This document shows, one piece after another, positions 6,448 to 59,019 of a DNA stretch of 64,000 nt. Position numbers and translations under genes: made by a program. The stretch comes from Candidatus Micrarchaeota archaeon (lineage in GTDB: Archaea > Micrarchaeota > Micrarchaeia > Norongarragalinales > UBA8480). Position 1 is the stretch's first letter. Each line of letters starts with the position of its first letter. Location: contig JAHFHC010000002.1 of assembly GCA_023247085.1 (NCBI GenBank), positions 24,395 to 88,394 of the forward strand, written 5' to 3'. Below the pieces are notes generated by a model. That model searched no databases. It worked only from the letters and a program-made list of their open reading frames with translations, and was not told the origin of the DNA.

Positions 6448-6477
6448 TTTGCTTTAGTGTTTTCTTTTGTGGCTAAC

Positions 6478-6707
6478 GGGGCTACGGGGATTTTCACGAA
6501 ACCCTTTTCTTTTTCGCGAAAAAGAAAAGTCTTTCAACCCCAAAGAAAAAGGCGTTTGCCTCTTCTTTTGGGAGTGAAGGACCTTTTCTTTCGAAGAAAA
6601 GGGCTTTCATTTGAACCCCGATCCTTAGCTGTCTACACTCATCTTGCAGTCGTGTGACCGCGGATGTTCCGCAAGCTAATGTTCTATCCAGGTTATACTA
6701 TAGCCCC
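6478..6707. repeat. Palindromic structured element, copy 1 (terminal inverted repeat GGGGCTA...TAGCCCC; internal CTTTTCTTT/AAAGAAAAG hairpins)
   Basis: Several perfect or near-perfect hairpins, e.g. cttttctttttcgcgaaaaagaaaag and ccttttctttcgaagaaaagg. The termini are reverse complements of each other. Homologous in inverted orientation to 58036-58244 (shared gaaacccttttcttt...aaagaaaag.ctttca). Confidence 0.5.
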
Positions 6708-6884
6708 AAGAAGATTCTTGTTAGTTTTACGTTGTTTTTAGTGTGCTGGCCGCGTGGCGCGTTATTTATTGTGATTGGAAATGTATAAAAGCTTCTTTTG
6801 TCCCTACTTCTCTGCTTTTATCTAGTGCTTTATGAGTGCTTTTTATAAAAGCAATTGATAAATTAGAGGTTTGAAAATTAATTT

Positions 6885-7465: not shown

Positions 7466-7719
7466 TAACTAAAATGGGAAAAGTACTAACTTTATTGAGA
7501 GTCTCAAGCGAAGAAGGCCAAAATTTAAACGAGTTACTTGAAAAACTAAAACAAGTAAGTGGCTATAACACTGGCAAAATCGAAGACTACGTTTTTGGTT
7601 CCAAAATAATCAAAATCTCCTACGTGTGCGAAGATAAAGACGCCGTTGACTTCGAATCAGTTGTAAGCCAAGTACCCGGTGTAGGCGAAGTAAACGTAGA
7701 AGAAGTTGGGCTAATCTGA
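7462..7719 (+). CDS. Translation elongation factor aEF-1 beta
   Basis: About 85 aa. The pattern MGKVLTLLRV...KIISYVCEDKDAVDFESVV...VEEVGLI fits the aEF-1beta family in length and layout. Confidence 0.65.
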   Translation: MITKMGKVLTLLRVSSEEGQNLNELLEKLKQVSGYNTGKIEDYVFGSKIIKISYVCEDKDAVDFESVVSQVPGVGEVNVEEVGLI

Positions 7720-8115
7720 AGATTGCGAGAAGTCTATCTTTTTGAGATTTGGGACGCGGTCAAACGCGTTGTCTGTGCTTATTATTGCGTCGAACTTTTT
7801 AGCATGAATTGCGTGAATTGCATCGGTCGGCGAAAGTGAATACGCTTCTGCTAAAGACACTGCCTCGATTAATGTTTCAGGTTCAAGCGAAATTACTTCA
7901 TCTACTATTTCTTCTACATATCTTACTGCTTCCAGCGTCTTTTCTTTTAAGTTATTGCGATTGAGATAATGCCAGATCTCCAATAACGTTGCAGTTGAGG
8001 TAAAGAACTCGTGTTTACCTGTATTATCTTTGAGGAACTTCTGCGCGCTCAGCTTTAAGTGATCCTTATCTTTGAATCCAGCTAGGAAAATATCAGTGTC
8101 CAAATAAAATTTCAT
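7711..8115 (-). CDS. vapC: PIN-domain toxin (VapC-like)
   Basis: 134 aa. MKFYLDTDIF acidic PIN motif, with further conserved Asp residues (SPTDAIH, TDNAF). Overlaps the upstream AbrB-like gene by 4 nt. Confidence 0.65.
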   Translation of the reverse strand: MKFYLDTDIFLAGFKDKDHLKLSAQKFLKDNTGKHEFFTSTATLLEIWHYLNRNNLKEKTLEAVRYVEEIVDEVISLEPETLIEAVSLAEAYSLSPTDAIHAIHAKKFDAIISTDNAFDRVPNLKKIDFSQSSD

Positions 8116-8372
8116 ATATTGTCCACAAATTCTTTTCTAGCTTCTTCTTTCATTTGGCGCAGTGTCTTCTTATCTGATCCAGGAACGACTATTGAAAATA
8201 AGCCCTTTATCGGGTCTACATTCCTATGCACCGGTTTAAGCGTTATTTTGTTACCCTGTGCCTCTATTAGCACTTCTGTATTCGCCCCGATTCCCACTTC
8301 GTCCCTAACTTTTCTTTCTAGTTGCAGTCTTCCCTTTTCATCAATATTCCCAAAAACGTACATTAATCCCAC
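8112..8372 (-). CDS. vapB: AbrB/SpoVT-family antitoxin (VapB-like)
   Basis: 86 aa. EKGRLQLERKVRDEVGI is a swapped-hairpin AbrB-type DNA-binding motif. Translationally coupled to the PIN gene. Confidence 0.6.
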   Translation of the reverse strand: MGLMYVFGNIDEKGRLQLERKVRDEVGIGANTEVLIEAQGNKITLKPVHRNVDPIKGLFSIVVPGSDKKTLRQMKEEARKEFVDNI

Positions 8373-37471: not shown

Positions 37472-37506
37472 TTGTAAACCCTACACCTTTTTATTAACGA
37501 AAAAGC

Positions 37507-37659
37507 GGGCTCGGTGGGATTCGAACCCACGACCCTCTGGTTTCTTCCCTCTAGAGAATAGAGTTAAAAGCCAGATGCTCTAGCCATTTCAGGAACAAAG
37601 AAAAACACGGTTGCGATAATCGCTATCATGCTTCTTTATTCTAGCTGAGCTACAAGCCC
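37507..37659 (-). tRNA. tRNA-Lys (anticodon UUU) with two introns (D-loop and anticodon-loop)
   Basis: Reverse complement reads GGGCTTG-TA-GCTCAGC[approx 57 nt insert]TGGCTAGAGC-A-TCTGG-CTTTTA[approx 23 nt insert]A-CCAGA-GGGTC-GTGGG-TTCGAAT-CCCAC-CGAGCCC. The 7-bp acceptor has one G-U pair, the T-loop is GTTCGAAT-like, and the anticodon loop CTTTTAA gives UUU. CCA is not encoded. Confidence 0.6.
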
Positions 37660-37806: not shown

Positions 37807-38211
37807 GTGGTTTTGTATTTGGGTAATATGCCAATTGCAGTTGTGTTAGATACGAATTTCCTCTTATTGCCTTTTCAGCGTAAGCTAGATCTAGAAGGGG
37901 AAGTTGAACGATTATTAGAAACCCCGCACTTCTACGTGGTACTTGGCCAGTGCCTTGACGAATTACGCGAAATGGGGTCAAAACAACGCAAATTCTCTCC
38001 AGCCAGCAGAGCAGCTTTAGCCTTAATAGCAAATAAAAAATTTGTAGTTGAACGCGGCTTTCCGGGTCCGCCAGACGATGCAATCCTAAAATATTGCATT
38101 GCAAAAAATGCAATTATGTGCACTGCGGACGCTGCATTGCGCGCCAAGGCTAAAAAAGCGCGAGTTAAGACGATTTATTTACGAGGCAAAAGCCATTTAG
38201 CACTAGCTTAG
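37807..38211 (+). CDS. PIN-domain protein, Fcf1-like (COG1412-type) RNase
   Basis: AVVLDTNFLLLPFQ PIN motif with a second acidic cluster (CTADAAL). Sits in the position commonly conserved next to rpoE/spt4 in archaea. Start may be the internal MPIAVV. Confidence 0.5.
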   Translation: MVLYLGNMPIAVVLDTNFLLLPFQRKLDLEGEVERLLETPHFYVVLGQCLDELREMGSKQRKFSPASRAALALIANKKFVVERGFPGPPDDAILKYCIAKNAIMCTADAALRAKAKKARVKTIYLRGKSHLALA

Positions 38212-54240: not shown

Positions 54241-56311
54241 GAAACATTTTATGTAGGGTAGTATCATTTGTCGATGTTTTTCCGCTTGTAATGCTCTTAA
54301 TTTCTTGTTTAGATCGCTTTGCGTAATCCTCAACGGTCTTTATTCCTGCGTTGTATAGTTTTCTTCCTCGTACTCTTCCAATTCCGCGTATTGTGCAAAT
54401 GTCAAGTAACTCTTCTTTTATTCCGTGTTTTATGCGTCGGCGTAAACGTTTTGCTTCTTGATAAACACTTGTTTGATTTTCAAGAAATGCAAGTTCGCGC
54501 AATGCGTAGCAAAGCCATTCGGCGTTTCGCTTGCGTGTTAGCAGCATTCCTGGTGGGGTTTCAAAATCTGTAAGCATTTGTTCTTCAGTTGCTTCATTAA
54601 TCCAGCCGTTTAGCACTTTAGCTGTTTTGAATTTGTCTAAAGCTTCGGCATCCCACGCTGGAAAATCTTCTAGCAAGTTATACGCGTCGTCCCACAGTGT
54701 TTTTTCTTCACCTTTTTTTACGTATATAAGTGGACGCATTTCAGTTGCTTCACAAATCGCATAAAGATAGTCAATTGTTTGCCTGGGGATTTGTTTTTTG
54801 ATAAACGAGAGGAACTTCGCGCCTGTCAAAGGGTCTATGTATAATTGTGCTATTCGCCTACCAACAGGCGTAGCTGCCAAACGGCCACTTTTTTCTCGAA
54901 TAAAGTCAAACTCTTTTAACTCTCCACAAATGCGGTCAATAACTCCCGCTAGTTGACCGCGGTCACCGTATTGGAACGCGTAGAATGTAGAGTCAAAGAA
55001 CTTGTGTAATTCCTCTATTGTTGAAACATAGTTTGAAGAAATAAGCGAAAGAGAATGAAAGCGAATAGCAGTTTCATTTGCGAGTTTACTGTACAAGTCC
55101 TCTGGTTTTCCGTAAACGTACTTCTCCCACACTTCCCCAACATCTTTTTTACTGCTTAACATAACTCCGATTCCAACATCGTCGTAATTTGGCCTACCGC
55201 TTCTACCTAACATTTGTTGTACTTCCATTGCAGGTATAAATTCTGAAAAGTTGCCATTAAACCGCTTTAAATCTTTTACAATCACCCATGTAGCCGGATA
55301 ATCAATGCCCATTGCAAGTGTAGTTGTACACACAATTGCCTTAATTGTCTTTTCGTGTTTGAACCCATCTTCAATTAATTGACGTTGTTTTGGTGTAATT
55401 CCAGCATGGTGAAACGCAACTCCATTTGCCATGCACGCAGAAAGCTCTTTGCACTGGGTTGTTGGAGTTGGCAACGCTTTCAAGGCGCGTTTACTCATAT
55501 CCGCCAGTTGCGCTTCGTCCCCCTGCTGCAAAAACTTCTTTGTAATTGCGCCAAGTTCACGCGCAGTTGACTCAGCGCCACGCCTGCTAGCTACAAAAAC
55601 CAGCGCTTGCCCATTTTGTTTAAATCGCAATGCGTTTTCCAACACGTCGTGCAATTGTTTTTTATCACTTACTTGAATGCTTGCTAATGCATTGTCTTTA
55701 AACTGCACTTCTTTTTCACTGCTAACCCCAACAATTAACTTCGTTGGTCTATACTCGCTGTAAAACAACTTTGCATTTAGCCACTCGGCCATTTCACTTG
55801 CATTTGGAATAGTTGCGCTTAACCCAAGCAGCTTTTTTTTAGCAAGATGAAGCTTCGTCATAACGACTTCCAGCGTTGCGCCACGTTGATCATCGCCAAT
55901 CAAGTGGCACTCGTCGAACACAACTGCGTTGATTTCCTCCATAAACTGTGGCGAATGTGTCAAAATTGAATCCAGCTTCTCGGAAGTTAAAATCGCAACA
56001 TTGGCGTCACCGATCTTTTCATCATCGCTATCTAACTCTCCAGTTGAAATCCCGACTTTCAATTCAAAAACAGCCAACTTTTTAGTAAATTCATTATACT
56101 TTTCACTTGCCAATGCACGCAACGGAACAACATACAGCGTCTTCTTACCATGTTCAAAATGATTTAAGATCCATAACAACGACACAAGCGTCTTTCCACT
56201 AGCAGTAGGTGAACTAAGCACAGCTCGGTCACTTTCAAATAAACCCTCTTGCGCTACTTTGTTTTGCATTTCGTTTAGCTTAGAATAGCCAAGCTTTGCC
56301 AAATTTTCCAT
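54230..56311 (-). CDS. hel308: Hel308/Hjm-like Ski2-family DNA helicase
   Basis: SF2 motifs: Ia LYVVPLRALASEK, II VFDECHLIGD (DECH), III LGLSATIPNA. C-terminal HhH GIGRVRGRKLYNAGIKT. Confidence 0.8.
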   Translation of the reverse strand: MENLAKLGYSKLNEMQNKVAQEGLFESDRAVLSSPTASGKTLVSLLWILNHFEHGKKTLYVVPLRALASEKYNEFTKKLAVFELKVGISTGELDSDDEKIGDANVAILTSEKLDSILTHSPQFMEEINAVVFDECHLIGDDQRGATLEVVMTKLHLAKKKLLGLSATIPNASEMAEWLNAKLFYSEYRPTKLIVGVSSEKEVQFKDNALASIQVSDKKQLHDVLENALRFKQNGQALVFVASRRGAESTARELGAITKKFLQQGDEAQLADMSKRALKALPTPTTQCKELSACMANGVAFHHAGITPKQRQLIEDGFKHEKTIKAIVCTTTLAMGIDYPATWVIVKDLKRFNGNFSEFIPAMEVQQMLGRSGRPNYDDVGIGVMLSSKKDVGEVWEKYVYGKPEDLYSKLANETAIRFHSLSLISSNYVSTIEELHKFFDSTFYAFQYGDRGQLAGVIDRICGELKEFDFIREKSGRLAATPVGRRIAQLYIDPLTGAKFLSFIKKQIPRQTIDYLYAICEATEMRPLIYVKKGEEKTLWDDAYNLLEDFPAWDAEALDKFKTAKVLNGWINEATEEQMLTDFETPPGMLLTRKRNAEWLCYALRELAFLENQTSVYQEAKRLRRRIKHGIKEELLDICTIRGIGRVRGRKLYNAGIKTVEDYAKRSKQEIKSITSGKTSTNDTTLHKMFLSD

Positions 56312-56751
56312 TATAATAATTTGTCGCGGTAGAGTTTTAGAAAGTATGGCATTGTAGAAATAACTGGTTCTGGCATTGAATTGAGGTCAAACCAGCCAAA
56401 ATCTTCAAACTTGTGCGGCTCTCCGTTTCTCGCTTTTTCCCTATCGACCAGCACTTTGAAATCCAAAGCAACCCAGTGAGTTTTCTTTCCATTATCCACT
56501 CTGTGCACATCTCTATAGCCTAAAAATTCGTACCCAATTACATCTGTGCAGTATTCTTCTTTAATTTCTTTTTTCAAACAATCCTCTATCTTTTGCCCAA
56601 AATCCAGCGCACCGCCGCCAATGTCCCAGCGTCCATGTTCATCTCTACAATTTTGACTACGCTTAGCCATGATGAATTTGCCTTTACCATCGTGACAAAA
56701 GTAAACAATTGCAACGCCAACATAATCAAAACCTTTTTTTGCTTCGCTCAT
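56311..56751 (-). CDS. NUDIX hydrolase (paralog 1)
   Basis: 146 aa. Nudix box GGGALDFGQKIEDCLKKEIKEEYC. Confidence 0.6.
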   Translation of the reverse strand: MSEAKKGFDYVGVAIVYFCHDGKGKFIMAKRSQNCRDEHGRWDIGGGALDFGQKIEDCLKKEIKEEYCTDVIGYEFLGYRDVHRVDNGKKTHWVALDFKVLVDREKARNGEPHKFEDFGWFDLNSMPEPVISTMPYFLKLYRDKLL

Positions 56752-57178
56752 TTTAACTTATCTCCATATTGTTTGAAAAACTTCGGAAACTGAGAATGAA
56801 TATTCTTTGGCAAATTATCGAGCGTAAACCATTTTATTTCGTTGAACTTATGTGGCTCACCATTAGAAACTGTTTTTGGATCAACTAAACACTTAAAGTA
56901 AAGCGCAATCCAATGTGTTTTCTTTCCCTCATGCTCGCGGTGTACATCGCCATAACCAAGAAATTCATGCTTCAAAACTTCTGTGCAATACTCTTCCTTA
57001 ATTTCTTGTTTTAACCGATCAATAATAGCGTCTCCAAACTCAACTGCACCGCCACCAATATCCCAATTGCCATGTTCATCGCGGCAATTCTTGCTGCGTA
57101 ACCCCATCAAAAAACGGCCATTCCCATCATGGCAAAAGAAAGAACTGTAACGCCTACATGATCAAAACCTTTTTGCAT
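56748..57178 (-). pseudogene. NUDIX hydrolase paralog 2, interrupted by a frameshift at a homopolymer
   Basis: The upstream piece MQKGFDHVGVTVLSFAMMGMAVF (57178..57107) and the downstream piece LMGLRSKNCRDEHGNWDIGGG... (57110..56748) align to consecutive parts of paralog 1. The frames meet at an A6 run (57109-57114). A single-base insertion would restore a full-length protein. Confidence 0.5.
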
Positions 57179-57181
57179 AAG

Positions 57182-58036
57182 TCATTCCTTCTTTCTGTTC
57201 TCAATTAAAATTGCTAATTCTTTTTGTTCTTCACTGCTTAACTCCAATTCAATTGGCTTAATTCCACTTTTGTTGACTCTGCATGGCCAAGTTACAAAAA
57301 TCCCATGTTTTGGTTCATAGTAAGAAACTGTAAGAACTTCGCCTTGCGCTGAAAGCAACGCTTCAACAAGCGTGCATATCTCACTAGCTGTACCATAAGT
57401 CGAAGCATTGTATTCGGATAAGTATGTGCTGAAAAAATTCCGGGTGTCATTGATAATTTTATTTTTGTTACTTACTGGTTCTGAAAAAACTGGAATTCCG
57501 CGTTTGCCATGCTCACCAATGAAAGTAGCATCTATAGTTTTTGAGAAATTCTTTCTGTCATTCGAAATTAAGTACTTTAGTCGGTTAACATCAAGCTGCC
57601 CGCCAAATCCAATAAAATTTCCGCTGTCAAGTCCAGTTAAATTTTGCGCCAGGTGAACAGTTCTATCGCAAGGAGTTGTAATTATTATTATCTTGCAAGA
57701 TTTCTTTGGTTTAATTTTAGAAAAAATATCTACAATTATAGGTTTGTTTAACGTCCACAAGCTACTGCCAGAAGGTGCGCCAAATGCCCCCGCAGTTATT
57801 ACAATTATATCTGCATCATTTGCATTTTCGTATTTTCCAACTTGAATTTTATCCGCATTTTGCGGAAAACTTCCAATTAAGTCAAATTTTAGTCCTTCTG
57901 CTTTAGCTAAATTGCGATCTATTAGTGTCAATGCGTTTGTAGGTAGTTTAATTTGTAGGCAAAATGCGGTTGTACTGCCAACTCTTCCAATTCCAATAAT
58001 TGCAATTTTTGTCATTTCAGTTTTCTCTTTTTTCAT
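57182..58036 (-). CDS. mdh: Malate/L-lactate dehydrogenase family (NAD-dependent)
   Basis: IAIIGIGRVGSTTAF Rossmann motif, IVITAG, IIIITTPCD, IGEHG motifs. Confidence 0.75.
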   Translation of the reverse strand: MKKEKTEMTKIAIIGIGRVGSTTAFCLQIKLPTNALTLIDRNLAKAEGLKFDLIGSFPQNADKIQVGKYENANDADIIVITAGAFGAPSGSSLWTLNKPIIVDIFSKIKPKKSCKIIIITTPCDRTVHLAQNLTGLDSGNFIGFGGQLDVNRLKYLISNDRKNFSKTIDATFIGEHGKRGIPVFSEPVSNKNKIINDTRNFFSTYLSEYNASTYGTASEICTLVEALLSAQGEVLTVSYYEPKHGIFVTWPCRVNKSGIKPIELELSSEEQKELAILIENRKKE

Positions 58037-58244
58037 AAAAGAAAGTAGCCCCGAGCGGATTTTCGTTTCTCACAGGTTTTCTTTTCCGTGAGGCTTTTCT
58101 TTTATCAAAAGAAAAGGTTCTTCGAACCGCTGTCAATGGATTCAGAGTCCACTATCCTTGACCATTGTCTAAAATTCTTTCTTTTACACTGAAAGGCTTT
58201 TCTTTCTTTTAAGAAAGAAAAGGGTTTCCTAGACGACGGGGCTA
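58036..58244. repeat. Palindromic structured element, copy 2 (termini TAGCCCCG...CGGGGCTA; inverted orientation relative to copy 1)
   Basis: Nested hairpins ctcacagg..ccgtgag, cttttcttttatcaaaagaaaag, caatgg..ccattg, cttttctttcttttaagaaagaaaag. Shares gaaacccttttcttt...aaagaaaag.ctttca with the reverse complement of 6478-6707. Confidence 0.5.
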
Positions 58245-58381
58245 TTTAGTATGTTTTTGGCCTGTTCAGTTTTAGAAGCTTTTCTCTATAGGGTTATTTT
58301 CTTTGGTTTAGTTTTTTTGCGATTCTAAAAAGCGAAACCCTTATTAATTTATCAGTTGATATATTTATCAAGTGATTAATT

Positions 58382-58672
58382 ATGCAAAGAATGTTACTGG
58401 AATTTAGCCCGAAGAATCTTGATCGATACCCTAGGCTCGATACTGTGCTTATGGTTGAAAAAGAGTTGTTTAGATATAAAAGCGACAAGACTATTACTGA
58501 AATATGGAAATTGTTGCCGAAAAAAACCATGTGGACTACCTTTGTCACTATTCTTGATTACTTAGAGTATTCTGGCAAAATACATTTAGAAGAAGATAAA
58601 ACCATCACCTGGATTTGGGATCCAGCCGGGGTTGCTTCGCTTAATATGAAAAAGAGGTTATTTATTGGATGA
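58382..58672 (+). CDS. Putative antitoxin-like small protein (unclassified)
   Basis: 96 aa. Overlaps the downstream RelE/YoeB-like gene by 4 nt. Confidence 0.3.
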   Translation: MQRMLLEFSPKNLDRYPRLDTVLMVEKELFRYKSDKTITEIWKLLPKKTMWTTFVTILDYLEYSGKIHLEEDKTITWIWDPAGVASLNMKKRLFIG

Positions 58673-59019
58673 GCGATAATCGCGTTAAACACGTTGCTTT
58701 TGTAGATGAAAAACTTCTCGCTACGTTTTCTGAACTTAAAAGTGGAAAATTTGAAGAAAAGCAACTAGTTTCTTACATTGAACGAGCTATTGATGATTTG
58801 AAGGAAAATCCACTAGTTGGCATAGTTGTTCCAATGAAACTTTGTCCTAGAGAATACATCGCTAAATTTAATGTGAATAACTTGCGAAAATATGATTTAC
58901 CAAATGGCTGGCGACTCGTTTATACTTTGAAAGGAAATCAAGTGGAAATTATTTCAGTTATACTTGAATGGTTTAGCCATAAAGAATACGAAAAACGTTT
59001 TGGTTACAGAGTAAGTTAA
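58669..59019 (+). CDS. RelE/YoeB-family toxin-like protein
   Basis: 116 aa. The C-terminal GWRLVYTLKGNQVEIISVILEWFSHKEY matches the RelE/YoeB pattern (hRLVY.V.D..V.I....YHY). Confidence 0.4.
   Translation: MSDNRVKHVAFVDEKLLATFSELKSGKFEEKQLVSYIERAIDDLKENPLVGIVVPMKLCPREYIAKFNVNNLRKYDLPNGWRLVYTLKGNQVEIISVILEWFSHKEYEKRFGYRVS

What the first reader, a model, noticed from the sequence alone, without database searches (positions are those of the whole stretch)
6478..6707. Palindromic structured element, copy 1, in a divergent promoter region
- A roughly 230-nt non-coding stretch made of nested hairpins built from CTTTTCTTT/AAAGAAAAG arms.
- It is bounded by GGGGCTA...TAGCCCC termini that can pair with each other.
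- A homologous element occurs at 58036-58244 in the opposite orientation.
- Candidate explanations: a MITE-like mobile element, a family of structured ncRNAs, or a protein-binding DNA site.
- It lies between divergently transcribed genes (the SDR, and the zinc-ribbon/ribL pair).
Basis: seen in the sequence. Interest (0 to 1): 0.6.

Follow-up and report, generated by a model that had tools for sequence, protein, structure and literature searches.

The report
Hidden multi-intron tRNA genes
The "palindromic element" is an archaeal arginine-tRNA gene split by two introns (its "second copy" is a glutamine-tRNA gene), and its hairpins belong to a conserved intron cassette, seen across many ultrasmall (DPANN) archaea, whose sequence pattern suggests an unusual three-stranded fold.

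Summary
Region 6478-6707 is a tRNA-Arg(GCG) gene on the minus strand (6707..6477). It has a canonical 38-nt intron at 37/38 and a 119-nt intron in the T-loop at 59/60. The GGGGCTA/TAGCCCC "termini" are its acceptor stem.

"Copy 2" is a different gene, tRNA-Gln(CUG), also on the minus strand (58243..58046), with introns at 15/16 and 59/60. A third hidden gene, tRNA-Lys(UUU), lies at 37659..37506.

- None is found by ARAGORN or Rfam until the introns are removed. All three are then called as clean cloverleaf tRNAs.
- All six junctions form 3-4-3 bulge-helix-bulge motifs.
- Related Micrarchaeota and Aenigmatarchaeota genomes confirm the splice junctions and show introns gained or lost.

This kind of gene is known from ARMAN-2 and Thermoproteales.

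What appears undescribed is the hairpin itself. CUUUUCUU(n)/(n)AAGAAAAG plus a downstream purine tract AAAAGAA(n) forms a cassette found in over 100 tRNA introns at three positions, across Micrarchaeota, Aenigmatarchaeota, Woesearchaeota and Pacearchaeota. The third tract is always a mirror copy of the hairpin's purine arm, never a direct repeat, and it covaries with that arm base by base. That is the signature of a triple-stranded contact, which remains inferred and untested.

The parts
6477..6707 (-). tRNA-Arg(GCG) gene (pre-tRNA, 231 nt; discriminator G at 6477; no encoded CCA). Exons are 6707-6669, 6630-6610 and 6490-6477.
   Evidence: ARAGORN calls tRNA-Arg(gcg), 74 nt, after in-silico splicing and finds nothing in the unspliced sequence. 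The syntenic orthologue in L060 has both introns at the same positions and compensatory changes in the acceptor and anticodon stems.
6631..6668 (-). Canonical 37/38 intron of tRNA-Arg (38 nt).
   Evidence: ARAGORN places the intron here. The BHB has central helix UUGC/GUAG and bulges GG|A and AC|A. A homologous intron is present in L060.
6491..6609 (-). T-loop 59/60 intron of tRNA-Arg (119 nt). It is composite: cassette A (hairpin 6583-6601 plus purine tract 6562-6569), and a second hairpin (6504-6529) whose partner tract (6542-6550) reads as a pyrimidine tract on the tRNA strand.
   Evidence: Strict hBHBh' motif: h CGGGG/CCCCG, H UUCA/UGAA, bulges AA|U and AA|U, h' GAAAGCCC/GGGUUUC. Removing it restores the T-loop UUCAAAU.
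6583..6601 (-). Cassette hairpin A: CUUUUCUU-CGA-AAGAAAAG.
6562..6569 (-). Mirror purine tract R3 of cassette A (AAAAGAAG). In this intron it is also paired with the pyrimidine tract at 6542-6550.
6504..6529 (-). Second hairpin: CUUUUCUUUUU-CGCG-AAAAAGAAAAG. Its purine partner tract lies on the opposite strand, so it looks like an inverted, slightly degenerate second cassette.
   Evidence: read from the sequence
58046..58243 (-). tRNA-Gln(CUG) gene (pre-tRNA, 198 nt; A1-U72, discriminator A). Exons are 58243-58229, 58164-58121 and 58059-58046.
   Evidence: ARAGORN calls tRNA-Gln(ctg), 73 nt, after splicing. The spliced D-arm GUCUAGUGGUCAAGGAU matches the uninterrupted D-arm of tRNA-Gln in L027.
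58165..58228 (-). D-loop intron (15/16) of tRNA-Gln, 64 nt, carrying a full cassette (hairpin 58197-58222; R3 AAAAGAAAGAA at 58175-58185).
   Evidence: BHB with H GUCU/AGAC and bulges AG|G and AA|U; the outer helix is weak, so the motif is relaxed. R3 mirrors the arm AAGAAAGAAAAG, including its second G.
58060..58120 (-). T-loop 59/60 intron of tRNA-Gln, 61 nt, carrying a full cassette (hairpin 58094-58116; R3 AAAAGAAAA at 58077-58085, in the loop of a second hairpin CUCACGG/CCUGUGAG).
   Evidence: BHB with H UUCG/CGAA and bulges AA|G and AA|U. The closest relative of this intron is in L117, Micrarchaeota.
37506..37659 (-). Third hidden gene, tRNA-Lys(UUU). D-loop intron at 37587-37642 (56 nt); canonical 37/38 intron at 37542-37564 (23 nt).
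   Evidence: An intact T-arm was spotted. ARAGORN calls tRNA-Lys(ttt), 75 nt, after splicing, and both junctions form BHBs. The syntenic orthologue L096 lacks exactly these 56 nt and instead has a 58-nt 59/60 cassette intron.

Best explanation
The flagged stretch is the gene for tRNA-Arg(GCG) of a Micrarchaeota-like DPANN archaeon, read from the minus strand. Two introns interrupt it, one at the canonical 37/38 site and one in the T-loop at 59/60.

The 'second copy' is the gene for tRNA-Gln(CUG), interrupted at 15/16 in the D-loop and at 59/60.

Inferred from the known archaeal pathway:
- The primary transcript folds so that each exon-intron junction forms a bulge-helix-bulge motif.
- A broad-specificity splicing endonuclease (EndA) cuts after the second nucleotide of each 3-nt bulge.
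- RtcB-type ligase joins the exons, and CCA is added afterwards.

Shown here: the CTTTTCTTT/AAAGAAAAG hairpins are the core of a conserved intron cassette. It has three parts: a pyrimidine arm Y1, a purine arm R2, and 7-16 nt downstream a purine tract R3. The cassette occurs in introns at 15/16, 37/38 and 59/60, in many different tRNAs across several DPANN phyla. It is gained and lost between orthologous genes.

Inferred and untested: because R3 is a mirror image of R2 and covaries with the helix (U-A with A, C-G with G), R3 probably lies along the Y1:R2 helix as a third strand. That would give a compact domain that organises the otherwise loose interior of relaxed BHB introns, or stabilises the excised intron.
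For: tRNA identity:
- After in-silico removal of the proposed introns, ARAGORN calls tRNA-Arg(gcg), tRNA-Gln(ctg) and tRNA-Lys(ttt), each with a standard cloverleaf, UUCRAAU T-loop, G18G19 and U33.
- The unspliced DNA gives nothing.

Junctions:
- All six have a fully paired 4-bp central helix flanked by 3-nt bulges.

Independent checks from other genomes:
- L096, which is syntenic and about 75% identical, has tRNA-Lys without exactly the predicted 56 nt.
- L027 tRNA-Gln has the predicted D-arm uninterrupted.
- L060 has tRNA-Arg(GCG) beside zinc-ribbon and RibL genes, with both introns in place and compensatory stem changes.

Cassette family:
About 105 are archaeal MAGs, most of them labelled as DPANN phyla.
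- 72 of them give tRNAs of at least 18 isotypes once spliced.
- A reversed-sequence control gave 3 calls against 90 in the real sequences.
- The cassette is also found in 37/38 and D-loop introns.
- The Arg 59/60 cassette is 91% identical over 46 nt to a 37/38 intron of tRNA-Leu in L081 and L085.

Mirror tract:
- AAAAGAA lies within 30 nt of 105 of 120 hairpins, on one strand only.
- Its length tracks the helix length, Spearman 0.78.
- Where helix length a is not 4, the exact mirror form occurs in 55 of 82 cases and the direct-repeat form in 0 of 82.
- An extra C-G pair is matched by G at the mirrored position in 7 of 9 cases, against 4 of 292 at U-A pairs (Fisher 3e-10).
- Variant cores found without using the pattern change R3 in step, in L043, L047 and L107.

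Literature:
- 59/60 introns cut by epsilon2 EndA in ARMAN-2 (PMC3239211).
- Intron families shared between tRNAs in Thermoproteales (PMC4090602).
- Undetected disrupted tRNAs expected in DPANN (PMC5829648).
Against: - There are no transcript data, so splicing is inferred only.
- No EndA or RtcB gene was looked for in the window.
- tRNA-Arg has an A12-A23 mismatch in its D-stem, although L060 shares it.
- The outer helices of the two D-loop BHBs are weak, so those motifs are relaxed.

Against the third-strand reading specifically:
- From my own knowledge, all-RNA purine-motif triplexes are considered unfavourable.
- In some introns R3 (or its AAAA) is Watson-Crick paired with a downstream U-tract. 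This is so in the window's Arg intron and in L007, L055 and L115.
- In very short introns such as L044, R3 directly abuts the BHB strand, which strains the geometry.
- The covariation counts are not corrected for shared ancestry.
Confidence: 0.95

Rival explanations
1. The 230-nt unit is a MITE-like DNA transposon with GGGGCTA terminal inverted repeats, present in two copies in the window.
For: The ends are inverted repeats, the hairpin modules recur, and the cassettes do appear to move between loci.
Against: - The two units share only the roughly 40-50-nt hairpin modules.
- The 7-mers are in opposite order in the second unit.
- There are no target-site duplications (read from the sequence).
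- The 'termini' plus internal segments assemble into two different, complete tRNAs.
- Orthologues have different acceptor sequences that remain paired.
Confidence: 0.01
2. These are dead tRNA pseudogenes disrupted by insertions, not spliced functional genes.
For: Standard tRNA finders fail on them, there are no expression data, and no intact isoacceptors could be checked.
Against: - All six insertions are bounded by a precise 3-4-3 BHB.
- The exons show compensatory stem changes against their orthologues.
- The same insertion sites recur in at least 72 tRNAs of at least 18 isotypes.
- All three tRNA genes found in 64 kb are of this type.
- ARMAN-2 59/60 introns are cleaved in vitro (PMC3239211).
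Confidence: 0.03
3. The cassette is conserved only because it descends from one proliferating intron and supplies the inner helix of the BHB. The purine tract R3 makes no tertiary contact. It could instead be a protein site, a DNA-level H-DNA mirror repeat linked to intron mobility, or a site where the nascent RNA's pyrimidine arm binds the DNA duplex.
For: - Near-identical introns sit in different tRNAs of one genome, for example AUK066 loci L014, L031, L039 and L046, which shows recent spread.
- R3 is sometimes Watson-Crick paired.
- Purine-motif triplexes are well established for DNA but not for RNA (own knowledge).
Against: Common descent alone does not give a mirror repeat, nor repeated concerted changes of helix and R3: lengths 2 to 6 within one genome, extra C-G matched by G, and variant cores. 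Replication-type processes make direct or inverted repeats, not mirror repeats. A DNA-only reading leaves the in-cis pyrimidine arm unexplained.
Confidence: 0.45
4. The palindromes are operator-like protein-binding sites, or a bidirectional promoter or terminator element, between divergent genes.
For: The position between an SDR gene on the minus strand and a zinc-finger gene on the plus strand, and the perfect palindromes.
Against: The hairpins always sit inside tRNA introns, at three defined tRNA positions, in over 100 loci with unrelated neighbours. The strand-specific third tract (105 on one strand, 0 on both) argues for a single-stranded reading.
Confidence: 0.01

Closest known systems
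Non-canonical BHB introns of Candidatus Micrarchaeum (ARMAN-2) tRNAs, cut by the epsilon2 splicing endonuclease (Fujishima et al. 2011, PMC3239211)
   Same: Same lineage (Micrarchaeota). Introns at 59/60, with several introns per gene. Both strict and relaxed BHB motifs. Many tRNA genes are disrupted.
   Different: The ARMAN-2 examples described are short (13-25 nt), and no conserved intron sequence is reported. Here the introns are 56-119 nt and carry a conserved three-part cassette. D-loop positions 15/16 and 17/17a are not in the list of positions given in the review PMC4090602.
Multi-intron tRNA genes and 'large-scale intron transposition' in Thermoproteales (Sugahara 2008; Fujishima 2010, as summarised in PMC4090602)
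   Same: [quoted passage not shown] Intron gain is recent and its mechanism unknown.
   Different: A different superphylum. The family here is shared across several DPANN phyla rather than one order, and it has a defined structured core with mirror-repeat covariation.
Triple-helix RNA elements (telomerase and SAM-II type H-pseudoknots, ENE/MALAT1) and purine-motif DNA triplexes or H-DNA (own knowledge)
   Same: A homopyrimidine:homopurine helix plus a third strand whose sequence follows a triplet code. The mirror-repeat symmetry is the classic signature of an intramolecular triplex.
   Different: Known natural RNA triplexes use a U-rich third strand (U.A-U). Here the third strand is purine (A with U-A, G with C-G), a code established for DNA rather than RNA. 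No physical evidence exists.
MITEs
   Same: Short, structured, repeated, non-coding, and apparently mobile.
   Different: There are no TIRs or TSDs. The mobile unit is an intron cassette that must recreate a BHB at its insertion site. The 230-nt unit itself is a gene.

Membership tests
Archaeal tRNA gene with BHB introns | The spliced sequence folds into a cloverleaf with the conserved tRNA nucleotides | tested here: met
   ARAGORN calls Arg(gcg), Gln(ctg) and Lys(ttt) after splicing. U8, G18G19, U33 and UUCRAAU are present.
Archaeal tRNA gene with BHB introns | Each exon-intron junction forms a bulge-helix-bulge (3-4-3) or a relaxed hBH/HBh' motif | tested here: met
   6 of 6 junctions have a fully paired 4-bp H and 3-nt bulges. 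The outer helix is weak at the two D-loop introns.
Archaeal tRNA gene with BHB introns | Orthologues support the exon boundaries and show structure-preserving substitutions | tested here: met
   L096 lacks exactly the 56-nt Lys intron. L027 has the Gln D-arm uninterrupted. L060 shows compensatory changes in tRNA-Arg.
Archaeal tRNA gene with BHB introns | Introns are removed in vivo by EndA and the exons ligated | not testable with these tools
   There are no transcriptome data. Cleavage of ARMAN-2 59/60 introns in vitro is reported in PMC3239211.
Archaeal tRNA gene with BHB introns | The genome encodes a broad-specificity EndA (epsilon2, (alpha-beta)2, or alpha4 with an insert) | not tested
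   Window ORFs were not screened for EndA. The expectation comes from PMC5829648.
Transposing tRNA-intron families (sensu Fujishima 2010) | Closely similar introns occur in different tRNAs and at different positions, with presence or absence differing between orthologues | tested here: met
   One example is the Arg 59/60 intron against the Leu 37/38 intron, 91% identical over 46 nt.
MITE | Terminal inverted repeats, target-site duplication, and multiple full-length copies | tested here: not met
   The termini are acceptor stems of two different tRNAs, and no TSD is seen in the sequence.
Any Rfam family (unspliced sequence) | Score at or above the gathering threshold | tested here: not met
   There are only sub-threshold tRNA hits of 13 bits on the minus strand.
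Intramolecular triple helix | A homopurine:homopyrimidine helix plus a third strand with mirror symmetry and triplet-code covariation | tested here: met
Intramolecular triple helix | Physical formation of base triples in the RNA | not testable with these tools
   This needs probing, melting, or NMR or crystallography.

The most novel reading that the evidence does not exclude
The CUUUUCUU hairpin plus its mirror purine tract is a self-contained, triple-stranded nucleic-acid module following a purine-motif code (A on U-A, G on C-G). It rides inside BHB introns and spreads between tRNA genes and positions across DPANN phyla. A version with the same core sequence, built as an H-type pseudoknot, occurs in over 100 viral contigs. 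If it forms in RNA, it would be the first natural extended purine-type RNA triplex, and a structural hallmark of a mobile archaeal intron family.
Probability: 0.3. Interest if true: 0.8.

Novelty: new variant of a known kind. Interest (0 to 1): 0.55.

Why it matters
Practical point: all three tRNA genes in this 64-kb window are invisible to ARAGORN and Rfam. tRNA sets of DPANN genomes are therefore undercounted, and completeness or 'missing tRNA' claims for them need intron-aware searches.

Biological points:
- The data give a clean case of intron turnover between syntenic orthologues.
- They define a conserved cassette that marks tRNA introns across several DPANN phyla. That makes the long-open question of how archaeal tRNA introns spread directly testable.
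- If the mirror tract really forms a third strand in RNA, it is a new type of natural RNA tertiary motif.

Tried and rejected
- Rfam on the whole window at gathering threshold and on both regions at E<=10 gave no family, only 13-bit tRNA fragments and meaningless miRNA or PyrR hits on the hairpins.
- ARAGORN on the raw window found 0 genes.
- I considered a permuted or split tRNA for copy 2 because of the swapped 7-mers. I rejected it: there is no T-arm or D-arm outside the unit, and the acceptor is simply AGCCCCG/CGGGGCU.
- I considered an archaeal replication-origin ORB repeat, K-turn or H/ACA RNA, SRP RNA and RNase P RNA from memory. None fits, and there is no Rfam support.
- An exact look-up of the Rad50-like protein to find the source contig found nothing on record.
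- A metagenome scan with a tRNA-Arg exon and intron-1 pattern, meant to collect orthologues without bias, returned only 3 chance hits in GC-rich coding DNA.
- Watson-Crick pairing of R3 with the pyrimidine arm as an alternative helix is rejected. The sequences are parallel-complementary rather than antiparallel, and the direct-repeat form is never seen.
- Literature searches for the motif string and for triplexes in tRNA introns found nothing relevant.
- Rfam on 12 viral loci and on one motif region found no family covering the viral version.

Full report
**The observation.**
- The window holds exactly four CTTTTCTT...AAGAAAAG hairpins, at 6504-6529, 6583-6601, 58094-58116 and 58197-58222. Shuffled sequence gives none.
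- All four GGGGCTA 7-mers of the window lie at the ends of the two flagged regions.
- Both regions fold much better than shuffles on either strand, with z from -5.2 to -7.7.
- The claim of a full-length homologous copy in the opposite orientation does not hold. BLAST finds only the roughly 40-50-nt hairpin modules, and these match on both strands because they are palindromes.
- The 7-mers are in swapped order in the second region.

**What it is.** The gene content points to an archaeon: a RibL-like cytidylyltransferase, aEF-1beta, an SMC/Rad50-like ATPase and a Hel308-like helicase. Read on the minus strand, region 1 is: GGGGCUA-UA-D-arm-UUAGC-UUGCGG[38 nt]A-GCUAA-GGAU-CGGGG-UUCAAA[119 nt]U-CCCCG-UAGCCCC-G.
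- After removing the 119-nt T-loop insert, ARAGORN calls tRNA-Arg(GCG) with a canonical 38-nt intron. The unspliced sequence gives nothing.
- Region 2 becomes tRNA-Gln(CUG) once a 64-nt D-loop insert and a 61-nt T-loop insert are removed. It has the A1-U72 pair and A73 that I recall as typical of archaeal tRNA-Gln.
- A T-arm search found a third hidden gene, tRNA-Lys(UUU), at 37659..37506. It has a 56-nt D-loop intron and a 23-nt canonical intron.
- Neither ARAGORN nor Rfam detects any of the three in the raw DNA.

**Junctions.** All six introns have a fully paired 4-bp central helix flanked by two 3-nt bulges, with the cut after the second bulge nucleotide.
- The Arg 59/60 intron is a strict hBHBh' motif: CGGGG/CCCCG, UUCA/UGAA, AA|U and AA|U, GAAAGCCC/GGGUUUC.
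- The two D-loop introns have weak outer helices, so their motifs are relaxed.

**Independent confirmation from other genomes.**
- The window is syntenic at about 75% nucleotide identity with a Micrarchaeota MAG (JAZDHP01, locus L096) over 32.4-39.3 kb.
- The orthologous tRNA-Lys in L096 lacks exactly the 56 nt I had predicted as the D-loop intron. It carries a 58-nt 59/60 intron that the window gene lacks. It also has compensatory changes in the T-stem and acceptor stem.
- L060, another Micrarchaeota MAG, has tRNA-Arg(GCG) beside zinc-ribbon and RibL genes, as in the window. Both introns sit at the same sites, and the acceptor and anticodon stems show compensatory changes.
- An Aenigmatarchaeota tRNA-Gln (L027) has the uninterrupted D-arm GUCUAGUGGCCAAGGAU, which matches my spliced junction.

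**How it works.** By analogy with the established archaeal pathway, the BHB motifs are cut by the splicing endonuclease and the exons are joined by RtcB ligase.
- Micrarchaeota are the lineage in which the broad-specificity epsilon2 EndA was found. That enzyme cleaves 59/60 introns in vitro (PMC3239211).
- DPANN genomes were already suspected of hiding disrupted tRNA genes (PMC5829648).
- Splicing in this organism is inferred, not shown.

**The hairpins are a conserved intron cassette.** I scanned the genome collection for GTTCRAA-N(1-8)-CTTTTCTT-N(0-12)-AAGAAAAG. My rough estimate is about 4 chance hits.
- About 105 of them are archaeal MAGs, most labelled Micrarchaeota, Aenigmatarchaeota, Woesearchaeota, Pacearchaeota or another DPANN group. 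The 11 or so bacterial hits lack any T-stem context.
- After removing the insert, 72 loci give ARAGORN tRNAs of at least 18 isotypes.
- An unbiased search for any 59/60 insert in these loci gave 90 validated cases, against 3 in reversed-sequence controls.
- The cassette also occurs in 37/38 introns (L009, L081, L085) and in D-loop introns (L024 and the window's Gln gene).
- The window's Arg 59/60 cassette is 91% identical over 46 nt to the 37/38 intron of a tRNA-Leu in L081 and L085.
- One Aenigmatarchaeota MAG has near-identical introns in four different tRNAs.
- This is the pattern described as intron transposition in Thermoproteales (Fujishima 2010, via PMC4090602), here seen in DPANN.

**A third conserved element.** This element was not part of my search pattern. 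A purine tract, AAAAGA(b), follows the hairpin after 7-16 nt.
- It is present within 30 nt of 105 of 120 archaeal hairpins, always on one strand only.
- Its length b tracks the inner helix length a, with Spearman 0.78.
- For a not equal to 4, the exact mirror form A4-G-A(a) occurs in 55 of 82 cases, and the direct-repeat form A(a)-G-A4 in 0 of 82.
- Where the helix has an extra C-G pair, the tract has G at the mirrored position in 7 of 9 cases, against 4 of 292 at U-A pairs (Fisher 3e-10).
- Variant cores found independently of the pattern change in step:
  - CUUUCUUUU/AAAAGAAAG goes with AAAGAAAA.
  - CUUCUUUC/GAAAGAAG goes with AAGAAAG.
- The tract therefore cannot Watson-Crick pair with the pyrimidine arm. 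It is its parallel complement and the mirror of the purine arm. That is the symmetry and code (A on U-A, G on C-G) of a purine-motif triplex.
- In the archaeal introns the tract usually sits in the loop of a second small hairpin.

I regard a third-strand contact as the best structural reading, but it is an inference. As far as I know, all-RNA purine triplexes are disfavoured. In some introns the tract is Watson-Crick paired with a U-tract, including the window's composite Arg intron, where a second and apparently inverted cassette supplies it. The counts are not corrected for shared ancestry. A DNA-level mirror repeat (H-DNA), or a role in intron mobility, remains possible.

**Side observation.** The cassette sequence alone matches 107 viral contigs of widely varying GC content, mostly in intergenic regions. 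There it is built as an H-type pseudoknot, in which the hairpin loop pairs with the segment after the purine tract. No Rfam family covers it. I could not identify it.

**Novelty.** Multi-intron tRNA genes with 59/60 introns in Micrarchaeota are known. I found no description of the conserved three-part cassette, its distribution across phyla, or its mirror covariation. The searchable library is incomplete, however. I rate the finding a new variant of a known kind.

**Verdict.**
Its interpretation is partly right: a structured RNA with repeated, mobile-like modules.
It is a tRNA gene, not a MITE, a new ncRNA or a protein site.
- Confidence in the tRNA and intron reading is about 0.95. Confidence that the mirror tract forms a real third strand is about 0.3.

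Noticed in passing
window 37506-37659 (-): A third tRNA gene, Lys(UUU), is missed by ARAGORN and Rfam. It has a 56-nt D-loop intron whose inner helix is purine-first (GAAUAAAGAA/UUCUUUGUUC) rather than the CUUUUCUU cassette, plus a 23-nt canonical intron. A TATA-like GTTTATATTTTG lies about 30 nt upstream and a T-run follows the 3' end.
   Followed up: yes
L096 6042-6198 (-) versus window 37506-37659: Syntenic orthologous tRNA-Lys genes differ in which introns they carry. The window gene has a D-loop intron and no T-loop intron. L096 has a T-loop cassette intron and no D-loop intron. This is direct evidence of intron turnover at about 75% nucleotide identity.
   Followed up: yes
L118-L224 (IMG/VR viral contigs), e.g. 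L124 7416-7452, L129 3206-3242, L194 6340-6374 and 10452-10486: The same core sequence (CTTTTCTT..AAGAAAAG..AAAAGAA) recurs in 107 viral contigs with GC from 0.26 to 0.68. It is mostly intergenic and sometimes present twice per contig. It is built as an H-type pseudoknot in which the hairpin loop pairs with the segment after the purine tract. No Rfam family covers it, and its function and active strand are unknown.
   Followed up: partly
window 6491-6609 (-): The Arg T-loop intron looks like two cassettes placed head-to-head. The second hairpin (6504-6529) has its purine partner tract on the opposite strand (6542-6550). On the tRNA strand that tract is a pyrimidine tract, and it pairs with the first cassette's purine tract. 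This suggests a DNA-level inverted duplication or insertion.
   Followed up: partly
window 6708-6745 and 58244-58280 (upstream of the tRNAs, minus strand): Both tRNA-Arg and tRNA-Gln have a CTAAAA(A)C motif about 26-36 nt upstream, which could be a TATA-box variant. tRNA-Arg has no T-run before the SDR start about 30 nt downstream, and the malate/lactate dehydrogenase ORF starts within about 10-30 nt of the tRNA-Gln 3' end. Co-transcription with these genes is therefore possible.
   Followed up: no
window 58382-59019 (+), 7711-8372 (-), and 37807-38211 (+): There are small toxin-antitoxin-like pairs next to the tRNA genes. A ParE-family toxin (58669-59019) has an upstream 96-aa partner with no Pfam hit. 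A PIN-like ORF (7711-8115) has an overlapping 86-aa ORF. A PIN_9 domain protein lies at 37807-38211.
   Followed up: partly
window 56311-57110 (-): Two tandem NUDIX-like ORFs overlap by 4 nt at 56748-56751 and have similar sequences. Only the first was checked against Pfam. This is probably a tandem duplication.
   Followed up: no
L082 and L087: After T-loop splicing, ARAGORN labelled two tRNAs 'tRNA-Stop(tta)' and one (L061) 'tRNA-Pyl(cta)'. These may be artefacts of further uncorrected introns, or real suppressor-like tRNAs. They were not examined.
   Followed up: no
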